From Sulfolobales archaeon HS-7 (GTDB lineage: Archaea > Thermoproteota > Thermoprotei_A > Sulfolobales > Sulfolobaceae), in the NCBI GenBank assembly GCA_019704295.1, contig AP024596.1, positions 256,001 to 320,000 of the forward strand: DNA of 64,000 nt. Reading direction: 5' to 3'. A program made the translations under genes and the position numbers. Under the pieces are notes generated by a model. The model had not been told where the DNA came from and did no database searches. It worked only from the letters and a program-made list of their open reading frames with translations. Shown piece by piece: positions 3,131-53,859 of this stretch; position 1 is the stretch's first letter, and every line of letters begins with the position of its first letter.

Positions 3131-4375
3131 GCGCCGTTCACGTGTTCATTGCGAATCGTAATATTCTTTGTTAAATTAGAATAGTTCAACATGTAATAAT
3201 TCAAATACATGTAAAATAGTAGGAGAATAAGAATAACTGTAATATTATTATAAATATAAGAAGATAGATTGGGATGTTATACCTGAGGATAATTCATCAT
3301 GTGGTTTGTAAAATCCTCTACGGGGAGTGAGACAGGCAGAAATACCTCCACTTTACGAGGGAGTTGAAGGACTCAACGGGATTGTTGTTATTAAGTCACT
3401 CTTACACCTCTCTCAGGACGAAAAGGCGCTACATACTTCACCCCTAATACGGCTGTGCGAATAGCGAGTTCAGAACAGTACCTGGCTCAACATTGTATTT
3501 CTCCACGTTCTGGCTCTTAGCAAATTTGTAACCGTTAAGACTAAACCGTTTTAGGGACTTGCTACTCTCATCTCTAGTGTTACGTGTTTTCCCTGTGTAA
3601 GGTATTCCAGCACACTGTACTTATCTGTAACCGTTACTTCCCCTTTAGCCGAGGGGGAGGAGCTCGTTTAACTACTCCCTTTCCTCCTTTATTACATGCC
3701 GTTCCTTATAGACAATGCAGTATCACCTCTTAAACCTCATTTTGAAAGCGTGGATGACGTTGTCTAAGGCGATAAAGCCGTCCGCTACAATTAACTCCAC
3801 ATTGTACTTCCTCCAGATGGATACGAGTAAGTCCCAGGCGCTTCTCTTATCCTCTTCTTTAGCGAGTGCTAAATTTAGTATTGCTTCCTCTCAGGAGTTA
3901 CCCTTGCTGCGACCCCCTTTTCTCCTTTAGTCAACTTGACGTATTTTACTTCTGTGATTACCCCTGCTCTAATTTCTCCTTAATTCGCGTCTTGACTCGT
4001 TTGTCTTGCCTATAAAAGACAGGGAGTTTGATGGTGACGTAAAATAGTTCTTAGATCTTTCTACTTCTCCTCATCACGAACACGACCCCCTTGACAAGGT
4101 TAAACCCAGTGTACCCTTCCCTCTACTTGGGACTCATCTCTTCTACTTCCTTAAGGGCTTTCCTCTCGATCTCCTGAACCGATTTGTTTATAATTTCTTT
4201 TTCGTAAGGTAGGATAAACGCAAACGTAATACCGCATTTGATAAGGGACGGCGTTTCGAGTTCTTCTGTGGTATTGTTTTCTGGTCATAACCAATTTAGT
4301 ATTACATTCTACGATTATTTAATTAATTTTAAACTAATAAAATAAAGTGAATTCACAATAAACGTGTGAACATCA
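3131..4375 (-). mobile_element. degraded IS256-family (ISC1250-like) element, copy 1
   Basis: Imperfect TIRs CCGTTCACGTGTTCATTGCGAAT / ATTCACAATAAACGTGTGAAC. Relic motifs VELIVADGFIALDNVI and NNPVESFNSLV (Mutator/IS256 DDE). Collinear with 47519-48713. Confidence 0.75.
3424..3601 (-). mobile_element. 176-bp CT-core element, copy A (inserted in the IS256 relic)
   Basis: Minus strand GAATAC-CT-TACACAGGGAAAACACG...GTAGCGC-CT-TTTCGTC. Absent from the second IS256 copy. Confidence 0.85.
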
Positions 4376-7570: not shown

Positions 7571-7747
7571 AGGCGCTATATGCTTCGCCTCTAACATGAC
7601 TATGGGAACAGCGTGCCCAGGCGGGTACCTAGATCAACGTTGTATTTATTTACGTTCTGGCTCTTGGCAAACTCAGACCTCTTGAAACTGACCATTATAG
7701 GGACTCGCGACCCCTATCCCTAGTATTACGTGTTTTCCTTGTGGAAG
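7571..7747 (-). mobile_element. 176-bp CT-core element, copy B (1-nt deletion)
   Basis: Minus strand GCTAAAT-CT-TCCACAAGGAAAACACG...CATATAGCGC-CT-CTTGAGA. Confidence 0.85.
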
Positions 7748-14730: not shown

Positions 14731-14806
14731 AGGCCTTTCATGTTTCGCCTCTACATGACTATGGGAACAACGTGTCCAGAACGTTACCTACATCAACATC
14801 GCAATG
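14731..14806 (-). mobile_element. 176-bp CT-core element, copy C (partial, right ~75 bp)
   Basis: Minus strand GATGTTGATGTAGGTAACGTTCTGGACACGTTGTTCCCATAGTCATGTAGAGGCGAAACATGAAAGGC-CT. Confidence 0.75.
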
Positions 14807-15072
14807 GATCGTTATCTTCATCGCTGGTATTATGTTTTGTTCTAGGGGAAGTTGAGAGATAGCATCATCACGCCCTGTTCCTCATTCATTGAAGCATTAC
14901 CGCTTAATGGGAGAACCGTCTTTAGCTTACAGCTAACCCTCTCAGAAGTGATTAAAGTACATATAATGTAACACAGTGTTGCCCATCGGCTACAAGTAGG
15001 GTAATTTTGGATTCTTTTACAAATCGTAATTTAGAGAAAGAACAGTAATATACAATAAATTGTTGAGCGTAG

Positions 15073-30699: not shown

Positions 30700-31230
30700 T
30701 TTACTCACCCTTGTGTTCACTTTTCAATTAGTTTGAAACTAATCAATTGATTATGGATTTGCTAATATAGATAGAAAGCAGGAAATAATCCTAGGAAGGA
30801 TTAAACACAACGACCTTTACTGAATGTAGTATTACGCTCCCGGCTCTACCTTTGGAGGAACGTTTTAACGAATTTGTCGTATAAGGAGAAAGGTCCTTAA
30901 GGAGGTCCGAGTTAGGGAACGAGATTAAGAGGAAAGGGTACTTGAGATACAGTTCCCGGGGAAAACACGTAGCGTTAGGGATGACAACGCCGATCCCCTA
31001 CATGGTCTGAAGAGGTTAAAGTCGCCCAAAGGTAAGGACGTCAAGTACTGCGACATTTATGTAGGTATGGTTCCGGATTCACTGTTCCCATAGCTGTGTT
31101 ATGGGTGAAACAGGTAGGGTCTTAGGTAATTTGAGATCGTGATGAAGGGCGGGAGGATGATCTTCAGGCCTTTCTACATGGCCGTGAGGTCACCTGCCTC
31201 GTTTAAGAGGGTAAGAGATCCGAGGCGCGC
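30700..31230 (+). mobile_element. 5' part of a third, strongly decayed IS256-type element
   Basis: Aligns by eye with the reverse complement of ~48300-48713 (e.g. GATGAAGGGCGGGAGGATGATCT vs GACGAAGGGCAGGAGAAAGATCT). Confidence 0.6.
30952..31122 (+). mobile_element. 176-bp CT-core element, copy D (small deletions)
   Basis: GGGGAAAACACGTAG...CTGTTCCCATAGCTGTGTTATGGGTGAAACAGGTAGGGT-CT. Confidence 0.8.
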
Positions 31231-47518: not shown

Positions 47519-48713
47519 GGGTGATTCACGTGTCCATTGTGAATTGTGATATTCCTCGCTAAATTAGAATAGTTCAGCATATAATAACCCAGATATATGT
47601 AAAATAGCGAGAGGAATAGGGATGGCTGTAATATTATTGCAGATGTAAGAAAAGATGTTGAAGTGTTATACGTAATGGCAATAGCTCGCGCGATTTGTAA
47701 AATCCTCCAAGGGGAATAAATAGATCGAAACGCCTCCTCTGCACAAGGGAGTTGAAGGACTCCACGAGGTTGTTACCCTTGAGTCACTCCCGTTCCTGTG
47801 GCGAAGAGATATTCGAGTACACTGTACTTGTCAGCTATAGATTTTCCCTCCTCAGCTGAGGAGCCCGTTCAACTCCTCCCTTCCCCCCCCCCTTTTCATT
47901 CTCCGCCTCTAATTGACTATGCATTATTGCCTCCTAACCCTCATGTTAGAAACGCGGATGACTTTGTACAAGGCAGTGAAGTCATTCGCTACGATCAACT
48001 CCACGTTACACTTCCTCCAGAGGCGAACGAGGAAGCTCCAATAGCTTCTCTTGGCCTTTTCCTTAACGAGTACTACGTCAAGTATTGCCCTCCTTTTCTG
48101 GGGAGTTACCCCTGTTGCGATTAGGAACACTCCCTTTTCCCCATGAGTTGACTTGGTGTTTTTCTTATCTACGTATTTGAAGTTGCTCCTTTCGTTCAGG
48201 TTTGGCATCGGAAGCTAGACGTTCAATTTCCCGCCAATGCACGAATATGAGAAGGAACGTGAGAACTGCCTCGCTCTCTCGCTCTAGTTCCTCCTCCACA
48301 CGCGTCTTGACTCTCTTGTCCTCCTTACACAAGACAGGTAGTTTCATGCTTATGCGTAAAATTTTGTAGATCTTTCTCCTGCCCTTCGTCAAGAGCACGA
48401 AGCTCTTAAGAAAGCGGAAACTAGAGTACCTCTTCTCTTAACCTCCTTTCCCCTAGTTGGGACTTATCTCCTCCGCTTCCTCAAGGGCTTTCCTCTTGAA
48501 CTCCTCGACTGATTTTTTAATAATAGATTCTGTGGAAGCATTTGCGGGACGACCTAGAAAATAATACCATATTCGGTTATACTTGGTAATTCAAGTTATT
48601 CCATGGTATTATTTCCGGCTCATCCCTTATTTAGTATTACTGAACCAGCGATGAATTAGTTGATCTCAAACTAATAAAATATAGTGAATTCATAATAAAT
48701 GGGTGAATGGCCC
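47519..48713 (-). mobile_element. degraded IS256-family (ISC1250-like) element, copy 2
   Basis: TIRs GGGTGATTCACG / GGTGAATGGCCC; fragmented transposase (ORFs 47924..48208, 48165..48398); possible decayed TSD GTGTGACTAC/ATTTGACTAG. Confidence 0.8.
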
Positions 48714-50189: not shown

Positions 50190-50564
50190 TTATCCTACGT
50201 GGCTAACGCATTCTACACTATATTTCTCGCAGAGCCTGAGGTCGTCTCTCAGTATTACTCCTTTACCCTTAACGTCCCATATTATAGGGTTGTTCTTCTT
50301 TACAGCCCTGTCGAACTCCTCCTCCGTTAACGGTATTACCTCAAAGCCCGGAGGCAAGTCTAGCTCTAACAGCCTTTCTAATGCATTCCCATGGAACTCC
50401 CCTATCAAGAGGACGTCAACATCACTCCATACGTTAAAGTCCCCTCTCGCGTAAGAACCGATCAGAAAAGCCGAGTACTTTCCCTTCAAAGAGTTAACGT
50501 AAGTCCTTGCCTTTTCAATTACTTCCCTCCTATTTCTTTCTCTTTCTGCAATAATGTCCTCCAA
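50190..50564 (-). CDS. minimal nucleotidyltransferase (MNT) antitoxin-like protein
   Basis: LIGSYARGD...SDVDVL. Confidence 0.9.
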   Translation of the reverse strand: MEDIIAERERNRREVIEKARTYVNSLKGKYSAFLIGSYARGDFNVWSDVDVLLIGEFHGNALERLLELDLPPGFEVIPLTEEEFDRAVKKNNPIIWDVKGKGVILRDDLRLCEKYSVECVSHVG

Positions 50565-50935
50565 AGCTCCTCTACGTACTTTATTACCTCTTCGGCATAT
50601 TTAATCGCTTCCTCAGCTTCTCTCCTAGTGTAGTAGTACTGTGGGGCTTCGCTCTGCCATACATCAGGATACCTAGTAGGGATGTAGAGCTTGTCCAGAT
50701 ATTTAGCCATATCAATCAAGTCCTCCGGAGCGTTTAGCAAGGTCAACAAGTTAGAAACCGTATGTCCCGTTCTAGGTTGCCCTATACCATAAAAATATGC
50801 TTTAACAGCCAGCTCCGCAGACTGTTGAGCCTTAAAGCAGGCCCAGTTATAAAACCCTCCCTCAAGGTCATGCTTAGCACTGTCTATGGTGAGTTTTGCA
50901 GACTTAAACCATCGGTCAAACTCGTCGGCGTCCAA
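50519..50935 (-). CDS. HEPN domain protein
   Basis: YNWACFKAQQSAELAVKA, TGH, LYIPTRYP. Confidence 0.9.
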   Translation of the reverse strand: MDADEFDRWFKSAKLTIDSAKHDLEGGFYNWACFKAQQSAELAVKAYFYGIGQPRTGHTVSNLLTLLNAPEDLIDMAKYLDKLYIPTRYPDVWQSEAPQYYYTRREAEEAIKYAEEVIKYVEELWRTLLQKEKEIGGK

Positions 50936-51249: not shown

Positions 51250-51850
51250 GAAAGCGAGTGGGTAAGTGTTGATCCGAATCGCTTCTGCAAGGGACTCCTC
51301 GCAGGAGACAGGTGTTTATATCGATTTCTGCCGCGAGAGATTAAGCGAGGGTATTGGAGGGAAAGCTAGAAAATTCGCTTCGGAGGATCTCGAGAGGCGA
51401 ATAGATGGTAAATCGTGTGAATTACCAGAAGAGGGGTTTTACAGGAAGGATAAACGCACGTAATGCGAGAAAGTTGAGCCGGTTGAGCCACTCTGGGTTG
51501 AGCGAATGTTGCTAAGCTCGTCATAAACAAGTCGTCTCAAGAGAAAACAACAGCCGCGATTTTTATAACTTGAGGATTTACGCTCTATTCCCAATTCAAG
51601 GCGCTATATGCTTCACCTCTAACACGGCTATGGGAAAGGGAAGTCTAGTACTGTATCTAAATCAACGTTTTATTTCTTAACGTTTTTGCTCTTTGCAAAC
51701 ATGCACTTCTTAAGACAGAACCATTGTAAGGCCTCGCTATTCTCATCTCTAACATTACATGTTTTTTGTGGAAGTGTCACCCAAGCGAGTTAAGCCTGGA
51801 AATTCGCTGGGTTCAAGAGGATGGAATCCGCTTCTGAGTAATCTCTCGTC
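51250..51850 (+). pseudogene. possible highly decayed tnpB fragment, interrupted by copy E
   Basis: Relic WVSVDPN (RuvC-I-like) and LEDL (RuvC-II-like, ~51569). Confidence 0.35.
51599..51774 (-). mobile_element. 176-bp CT-core element, copy E (2-nt deletion)
   Basis: Minus strand GGTGACA-CT-TCCACAAAAAACATG...GAGGTGAAGCATATAGCGC-CT-TGAATTG. Confidence 0.85.
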
Positions 51851-53285: not shown

Positions 53286-53859
53286 TTAATATTGAATGAA
53301 CAATAAATGTAATTCACCTTATAAACTAAATTTTTATTGAATAGAGTATCGCAGAACATAATTGGAGGGGTAATACTTAAGCGGGATTACGCGTAGGTTA
53401 TATTTTGGTCATGATTTAATATCACGTAATACTCCAGCAGGACTTAGGTCGGAAGAGTAAATATCTTTTGTAAGGAATTTCTAAGTGAGTTAAAGGATGT
53501 ATTTAGCAGGGATTTCAAGAGCCTCAAGTTTTCCAAGTACAAACCTTTGACTTTCTCCCACGGGGAAAACGCGTACCACTAATGATGAATACAGCAAGTC
53601 CCTACAATGGTTAAGTCTAAAGAGATCCAAGTTGGTCAAGGCTAAGAACGTCAAGGATTACGAGGTGGACGTAAGTAGCATTTTGAATTCGCTGTTCCCA
53701 TAACTGTGTTAGAGGCAAAGCATATAATGCATCGAAAATTTCGAAATTATCCTCAGATATATTCAATAAATTAATTGAATAAATTTAATTCTAGATAAAC
53801 GTGTTTTATAACTTTTAGTTTATTTAGTTATTCACATTAATTACACATTGAAAATTGTC
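53286..53859 (+). mobile_element. GACA-type MITE/IS relic carrying nested copy F
   Basis: Right end ATTAATTACACATTGAAAATTGTC matches the family; left end degenerate (CAATAAATGT...AAACTAAATTTTT). Confidence 0.55.
53555..53732 (+). mobile_element. 176-bp CT-core element, copy F (circular ORF intact)
   Basis: CT-CCCACGGGGAAAACGCGT...TTCCCATAACTGTGTTAGAGGCAAAGCATATAATGC-AT. Confidence 0.85.

What the first reader, a model, noticed from the sequence alone, without database searches (positions are those of the whole stretch)
53555..53732. Dispersed 176-bp mobile element whose ORF exists only when it is circularised
Seen: six diverged copies (3424-3601, 7571-7747, 14731-14806 partial, 30952-31122, 51599-51774, 53555-53732). 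In linear form each starts mid-ORF right after the CT core, runs 48 codons to a conserved TTC-CCA-TAG/TAA, skips 2 nt, then opens ATG/GTG-TTA-GAG-GYG-AAG-CAT-ATA... into the right end. Joining the right end to the left through one CT puts the two halves in frame, giving 57 codons plus stop, or 174 of 176 bp. Copy F gives MLEAKHIMPPTGKTRTTNDEYSKSLQWLSLKRSKLVKAKNVKDYEVDVSSILNSLFP*. Copy A keeps the frame (YTGKTRNTRDESSKSLKRFSLNGYKFAKSQNVEKYNVEPGTVLNSLF) but has mutated start and stop. B, D and E carry indels or stops. Many differences between copies are synonymous: Val GTG/GTA/GTT/GTC, Ala GCT/GCC/GCA, Thr ACT/ACC/ACA, Leu CTG/CTA/TTG, stop TAG/TAA, start ATG/GTG. Inference: this is a minimal element propagated through a DNA (or RNA) minicircle, with selection on a small basic peptide that only the circle or a tandem dimer can express. 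I do not recognise the peptide or a described Sulfolobales MITE with this design. Alternative: it is an internal-deletion derivative of a larger integrating element whose gene is split at the attachment site.
Basis: partly seen in the sequence, partly recalled or inferred. Interest (0 to 1): 0.92.

Follow-up and report, generated by a model that had tools for sequence, protein, structure and literature searches.

The report
Gene-less IS110 mini-elements in Sulfolobales
The repeat is a real, now-dead mini jumping element: it is the two ends of an RNA-guided IS110 transposon with the middle deleted, and its "circle-only gene" is mostly a leftover scrap of the transposase that shows no sign of being maintained.

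Summary
The repeat is real: six copies in the window and about 45 in the genome (Sulfolobales archaeon HS-7), in 178-bp and ~120-bp forms. Joining the ends through one CT does give a 57-codon frame in the consensus and in copy F.

The peptide interpretation fails. The element is an internal deletion of an ISC1491-like IS110 element; three decayed 1.4-kb parents share both ends. Its last 28 codons are the transposase C-terminus. dN/dS in the circular frame is 1.12 (0.91-1.36), and variants shared by many copies are mostly non-synonymous. Only 3 of 34 copies are intact, as neutral decay predicts, and an out-of-frame 120-bp derivative also spread.

Best reading: a non-autonomous IS110 donor, moved in trans by the parent's recombinase and bridge RNA, now fossil. 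Empty paralogous sites show insertion at a single CT. Parent target guides match their own flanks and are enriched in mini-element flanks.

Relatives carry parallel derivatives: young 184-bp, bridge-RNA-keeping 340-398-bp, and ~50-bp forms. The scan noted gene-less IS110 remnants before on other DNA; MITEPpu9 is the published analogue.

The parts
53555..53732 (+). Copy F, full 178-bp non-autonomous IS110 derivative (right core decayed to AT)
53555..53593 (+). CT core plus first 39 bp of the parent's left end (right-donor side of the circle junction); bridge RNA and its putative promoter deleted
   Evidence: consensus 1-39 aligns to parent 1-39
53591..53602 (+). 12-bp scrap from inside the transposase gene, just after the catalytic Ser-Gly motif; probably joined by microhomology
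   Evidence: consensus 37-48 matches parent 1098-1109 at 12/12
53603..53703 (+). 3' end of the IS110 transposase gene with its stop codon (53701-53703); a 1-nt deletion lies near the 5' end of this stretch
53704..53732 (+). Parent's right end.
3424..3601 (-). Copy A, 178 bp, inserted at a CT in a repeated element whose empty paralogue lies near 47800
7571..7747 (-). Copy B, 177 bp, frameshifted
14731..14852 (-). Copy C, member of the ~120-bp subfamily (a further 56-bp deletion, out of frame)
30951..31122 (+). Copy D, 172 bp, decayed, with a stop early in the circular frame
51599..51774 (-). Copy E, 176 bp, frameshifted

Best explanation
The 178-bp repeat is a non-autonomous (MITE-like) internal-deletion derivative of an ISC1491-like IS110-family insertion sequence.

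SHOWN: it consists of 39 bp of the parent's left end, a 12-bp internal scrap, the last ~100 bp of the transposase gene and the right end. It inserts at a CT dinucleotide and adds only one CT. It has neither recombinase nor bridge RNA. A ~120-bp subfamily arose from it by a further deletion.

INFERRED from IS621 biology and from guide-to-flank matches: an intact parent supplied the recombinase and bridge RNA in trans. The donor loop recognised the retained ends, the element excised as an end-joined circle, and it recombined into sites chosen by the parent's target loop.

The circular reading frame is a by-product: the right-end motif happens to begin with a start codon 2 nt after the transposase stop, and the deletions happened to land in frame. 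In HS-7 the family is a fossil. Every parent found is broken and the copies have decayed to 68-90% identity with the consensus.
For: Parents: three 1.38-1.43-kb elements share both ends, with PF01548 and PF02371 hits in one of them. Intact relatives at 55-68% identity are named IS110 family RNA-guided transposase, and one is 'First ORF in transposon ISC1491'. The mosaic map to the parent is and the tail match.

Insertion: empty paralogous sites with a single CT exist for several copies and parents.

Bridge RNA: the parent left end folds into two stem-loops with internal loops. In 18 full elements the first loop matches the element's own flanks: right 3.7 nt against 0.85 shuffled, left 4.5 against 2.6, and no permutation of 20,000 reached either value. 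The second loop's right segment is complementary to CT plus the left end and changes with it across three variants. HS-7 mini-element right flanks match the three remnant target guides for 3 nt or more in 11 of 43 cases against 2.7 expected, p=1e-4; the mean match stays higher than for CT sites followed by a pyrimidine, p=0.0009.

Parallel case: genome G012 has an intact parent and 18 or more young 184-bp minis whose flanks match its guides, with real end-to-end junctions in tandems.

Neutral evolution of the frame. A 22-bp donor works with bridge RNA in trans for IS621 (PMC11208160).
Against: No circle, junction read or tandem was seen in HS-7. All five HS-7 left-end remnants lack the right donor guide segment, so the guide predicted for this lineage's left end could not be confirmed. 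The canonical left donor guide does not match the core-adjacent right end in most relatives. The guide-to-flank tests use related elements and guides read after the fact, so the p-values overstate. Some copies sit inside other repeats and may have spread passively.
Confidence: 0.9

Rival explanations
1. One reading: the circle expresses a small basic peptide that is needed for, or favours, propagation.
For: The frame fills 174 of 176 bp in the consensus. The independently derived 184-bp family in G012 is also in frame, 59 codons in the 17 copies translated and in the tandem copy. Reading the printed sequence, the 58-bp G012 micro-form is in frame too.
Against: Omega is 1.12 (0.91-1.36), and nonsense changes number 22 against 28 expected. 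Variants shared by 7 or more copies, which should reflect active lineages, are 3 synonymous to 22 non-synonymous against a neutral 29%. The G012 minis show 7 synonymous to 16 non-synonymous against 33% expected. The ~120-bp subfamily lost 56 bp, is out of frame, and still reached about 11 sites. The 295-398-bp and 49-52-bp derivatives lack the frame. Any deletion has about a one-in-three chance of landing in frame. The consensus shows no TATA-like box 25-30 nt before the start.
Confidence: 0.04
2. The copies are independent deletion remnants of full-length IS110 insertions, or passengers spread inside other mobile elements, and did not move as a mini-element.
For: Independent deletion products exist (186, 193, 161 and 162 bp). 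Several copies sit inside other repeats, and one identical pair shares a flank.
Against: About 30 copies share the same two-step deletion junction and 1-nt deletion, with unrelated flanks. A weakly supported clade of 11-12 copies shares substitutions absent from the parent. Empty sites show clean insertion of the short form.
Confidence: 0.05
3. The element is a conserved structured RNA, or moves through an RNA circle.
For: Only the uniform length and the absence of terminal inverted repeats.
Against: No Rfam match in the window. Copy F folds worse than shuffles, z=+1.0. Its whole length maps to pieces of a DNA insertion sequence.
Confidence: 0.01

Closest known systems
IS110 group / IS621 bridge recombinase system (PMC11208160)
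   Same: CT core, no terminal inverted repeats, long left end and short right end in the parent, DEDD and Ser domains, and a two-loop left-end RNA whose first loop matches the target and whose second loop's right segment matches the donor. The donor works with RNA supplied in trans.
   Different: The mini-element carries neither recombinase nor RNA. In this archaeal subgroup the left segment of the second loop does not match the core-adjacent donor; it is complementary to a 7-bp motif about 20 bp inside the right end. The RNA promoter looks internal to the left end rather than formed at the junction (inferred from A/T-rich boxes).
MITEPpu9 / ssr9 and ssr9-'tnp of Pseudomonas putida ISPpu9 (PMC12288879)
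   Same: A non-autonomous IS110 derivative that forms minicircles in a transposase-dependent way. One form carries a 3' transposase fragment, and tandems with the parent occur.
   Different: Bacterial, AG core, carries its own small RNA, eight copies. The HS-7 element has no RNA, a CT core and about 45 old copies.
ISC1491-like IS110 elements of Saccharolobus and Sulfurisphaera
   Same: Same right-end motif and left-end RNA architecture; parent protein 55-68% identical.
   Different: These are autonomous ~1.45-kb elements. No paper in the searched library mentions ISC1491.
Sulfolobales MITEs: SMN1, SM3A (PMC3718332) and the orfB-derived MITE-like repeat of Acidianus hospitalis (PMC3119797)
   Same: Small non-autonomous derivatives moved in trans. 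The A. hospitalis element likewise keeps a short frame from the downstream end of its parent's protein.
   Different: They are tied to ISC1733, ISC1058 or orfB, not to IS110 or a bridge RNA.

Membership tests
IS110 family (parent element) | N-terminal DEDD domain (PF01548) and C-terminal Ser domain (PF02371) | tested here: met
   Both over cut-off in the decayed HS-7 parent and in the intact relative P0001
IS110 family (parent and mini-element) | Short core dinucleotide at both ends, no further target duplication | tested here: met
   CT at both ends; empty paralogues hold one CT
IS110 group | Long left end encoding a two-loop RNA, short right end | tested here: met
   Parent left end about 280 bp, right end about 30 bp; consensus fold with two internal loops. 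Absent from the mini-element
IS110 group | Target loop matches the element's own left and right flanks | tested here: met
   Permutation test on 18 elements, 0 of 20,000 on both sides
IS110 group | Right donor guide complementary to core plus left end | tested here: met
   Three covarying variants in relatives; deleted in all five HS-7 remnants
IS110 group | Left donor guide matches the core-adjacent right end | tested here: inconclusive
   Only 2-4 nt match in most elements. A 7-9-nt complement to the distal right-end motif is seen instead, with ambiguous covariation
IS110 family | Excised circular intermediate with an end-to-end junction | not testable with these tools
   No reads could be laid. 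No tandem in HS-7. Chromosomal end-to-end junctions exist in G012 tandems
MITE (non-autonomous IS derivative, broad sense) | Short, multi-copy, no transposase, shares ends with an autonomous element | tested here: met
MITE (classical) | Terminal inverted repeats and target-site duplication | tested here: not met
   The ends are not complementary and only CT is repeated; hence MITE-like, not a classical MITE
Selected small ORF (circle-only gene) | Purifying selection in the frame and retention of start, stop and frame | tested here: not met

The most novel reading that the evidence does not exclude
This archaeal IS110 subgroup supports a graded series of parasites that borrow the parent's recombinase and bridge RNA, down to 47-58-bp elements that insert independently at guide-like sites. 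A circle of that size is likely too small to form as ordinary double-stranded DNA (own knowledge), which would imply another intermediate or travel in tandem.
Probability: 0.3. Interest if true: 0.65.

Novelty: new variant of a known kind. Interest (0 to 1): 0.4.

Why it matters
The headline claim, a gene that exists only on a circle, does not hold, so the finding as written is ordinary mobile-element decay.

What remains is useful but modest. It is an apparently undescribed family of RNA-less IS110 derivatives in archaea whose insertion sites match the parents' target guides. Natural deletion series from 398 bp down to ~50 bp mark the minimal donor of a thermoacidophile bridge recombinase. 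That makes minimum donor size, the nature of the intermediate and donor recognition in an archaeal system directly testable, and points to intact recombinase-RNA pairs from thermophiles.

Tried and rejected
Selection on the circular frame: tested by codon-position divergence, omega in all six frames by segment, nonsense counts, neutral simulation and frequency classes; rejected.

I did not try another route and used frequency classes instead. The tree is star-like, with no strongly supported fork.

Structured RNA: no Rfam hit and no folding signal. Pfam on the linear 48-codon frame of copy F: no family. The same frame gave no alignment with the more distant relative P0012.

Sequencing runs: none was listed for the region. 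That is no evidence either way, so no reads were laid.

Viral contigs: no match to the left-end RNA pattern. The representatives search gave almost nothing between about 39% and 53% identity, so deeper covariation of the donor loop could not be tested.

Close DNA relatives of copy F: only one other genome of 47 in the family matched, and only to the parent's right end. No ~50-bp micro-element was found in HS-7 with the patterns used.

The archaeal IS review PMC1847376 is not held, and the original Sulfolobus MITE papers were not read, so a prior description in ISfinder or subscription journals is not excluded.

Full report
OBSERVATION. The window is positions 256001-320000 of a single 2,151,177-bp contig at 39.6% GC, which matches Sulfolobales archaeon HS-7 exactly (PMC8459659). 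The six copies are present, four on the minus strand. A profile search gave 67 hits genome-wide. These resolve into about 30 copies of 169-179 bp, about 11 of 115-123 bp, a few one-off lengths, fragments, and the ends of three 1.38-1.43-kb elements. Copies are 68-90% identical to the consensus and 71% to each other on average. Joining the ends through one CT gives 57 codons plus stop in the consensus and in copy F. Copy C is a complete short-form element at 14731-14852.

WHAT IT IS. The three long elements begin and end with the same sequences as the repeat and enclose a frameshifted transposase. One of them has hits to both IS110 domains. Intact relatives occur in other Sulfolobaceae at 55-68% identity, and 12 of 46 other genomes in the family hold a match. 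Sources name them IS110 family RNA-guided transposase, and one the first ORF of ISC1491. The repeat maps onto the parent in three pieces: positions 1-39 to the left end, 37-48 to an internal 12-bp stretch just after the catalytic Ser-Gly, and 49-178 to the end of the gene and the right end, with a 1-nt deletion. The last 28 codons of the proposed peptide are therefore the transposase C-terminus (24 of 32 identical, E=3e-15). The short form shares the first junction and lacks a further 56 bp.

THE PEPTIDE. Omega against the consensus, corrected for the observed substitution spectrum, is 1.12 (bootstrap 0.91-1.36). By segment it is 1.65, 0.94, 0.74 and 1.24, no lower than in other frames. Nonsense changes number 22 against 28 expected. 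Three of 34 copies are intact; among the seven without indels, three are intact against 1.9 expected under neutral decay. Inserted copies could decay neutrally even if active lineages were selected, so I split variants by how many copies share them. Those in seven or more copies are 3 synonymous to 22 non-synonymous, against a neutral 29%. The out-of-frame short form also spread. The start block is the family's right-end motif, found in autonomous elements across the family. But its variants are 7 to 16, as neutral, other derivatives are out of frame, and a deletion lands in frame about one time in three.

MECHANISM. Rebuilt empty sites align across the junction with uninterrupted paralogues holding a single CT, for copy A, other minis and two parents. 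The parents' left end folds into two stem-loops with internal loops, the layout of a bridge RNA (PMC11208160). In 18 full elements the first loop matches the element's own flanks far better than shuffled pairings. The right segment of the second loop is complementary to CT plus the left end and changes with it in three variants. Right flanks of HS-7 minis are 95% pyrimidine at +1 and match the three remnant target guides beyond chance. In G012, which still has an intact parent, at least 18 minis at 96-100% identity sit in sites matching the parent's guides, and tandems show true end-to-end junctions. IS621 recombines a 22-bp donor with RNA supplied in trans, and ISPpu9 circularises its non-autonomous derivative (PMC12288879). 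Excision as a circle and supply in trans are inferred, not shown, for HS-7. No intact transposase of this family was found there, and all five left-end remnants lack the right donor guide, so the family appears dead.

AN OPEN POINT. The left segment of the second loop does not match the bases next to the core, which vary among species. It is complementary over 7-9 nt to the conserved right-end motif about 20 bp away. One lineage changes both sides together, but that change also fits the canonical pairing. Some elements with intact reading frames have lost part of the segment. I treat distal pairing as a lead only.

WIDER FAMILY. A pattern search found short elements with both ends in 9 of 47 genomes. 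Derivatives include 339-398-bp forms that keep the RNA, the 184-bp form, and 47-67-bp forms. The four 52/53-bp copies in G032 and the 50-bp copies in G034 share only a few flanking bases and are otherwise in unrelated sequence, which suggests independent insertion. The 58- and 67-bp forms lie in other repeats and may be passengers.

COMPARISON AND NOVELTY. It works like IS621 and meets the testable IS110 criteria as a non-autonomous derivative. It is not a classical MITE, having no inverted repeats. Non-autonomous IS110 elements are known (MITEPpu9), as are Sulfolobales MITEs that keep a scrap of their parent's frame (PMC3119797). I found no paper on IS110-derived minis in archaea, within a library that lacks most subscription journals. 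Earlier notes of this scan reached similar readings on this genome and on others.

VERDICT. The feature is real, the peptide interpretation is rejected, and it is a new variant of a known kind. Interest 0.4.

Noticed in passing
L154-L157 (G032); L128-L130, L133, L171 (G034); L139, L141-L143 (G027); L147 (G046); L163, L167, L170: 49-53-bp micro-elements made of about 9 bp of left end, a short spacer and the right end, between CT cores; in G032 and G034 the wider flanks are unrelated. Probably too short for an ordinary double-stranded circle.
   Followed up: partly
L094-L111 (G012); tandems at L017:1946-2129 and L100/L115: Young 184-bp family of the same design with an intact parent in the genome, real end-to-end junctions, and an in-frame 59-codon circular frame showing no synonymous bias.
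   Followed up: yes
L114-L126 (G012), L135-L137 (G025), L140 (G027), L146 (G044), L149 (G046): 339-398-bp derivatives that keep the whole two-loop RNA but no recombinase; they could supply extra target guides in trans.
   Followed up: partly
L016, L017, L033, L038, L056, L057, L059 left ends: The left segment of the donor loop is complementary to the right-end motif about 20 bp from the core rather than to the core-adjacent bases; A/T-rich boxes lie 20-35 nt upstream of the RNA's first stem.
   Followed up: partly
G000:C1:50629-51031 and 391648-391918; L002-L004: Two more left-end remnants of the parent. All five HS-7 left ends lack the right donor guide yet carry three different right target guides.
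   Followed up: partly
G000:C1:1178936-1179159: A full copy inserted in opposite orientation inside another, decayed copy of the same family.
   Followed up: partly
G000:C1:637677-639059, 1085678-1087108, 1430220-1430397: Two parents and one mini are inserted at CT sites inside another multi-copy element with many empty paralogues; the genome holds several further decayed repeat families.
   Followed up: partly
G000:C1:849370-849544 and 886648-886822: The only identical pair of copies; they share the left flank but not the right, suggesting a rearrangement or passive duplication.
   Followed up: no
L158-L162, L145 (G028); L112, L113, L127, L138, L164, L165: 67-bp and 58-bp forms sitting in ends of other mobile elements, one at the same flanks as a full-length element; may be passengers.
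   Followed up: partly
window 50519-50935 (-): HEPN-domain gene with an overlapping downstream 124-aa frame (50190-50564), possibly a toxin-antitoxin-type pair.
   Followed up: no
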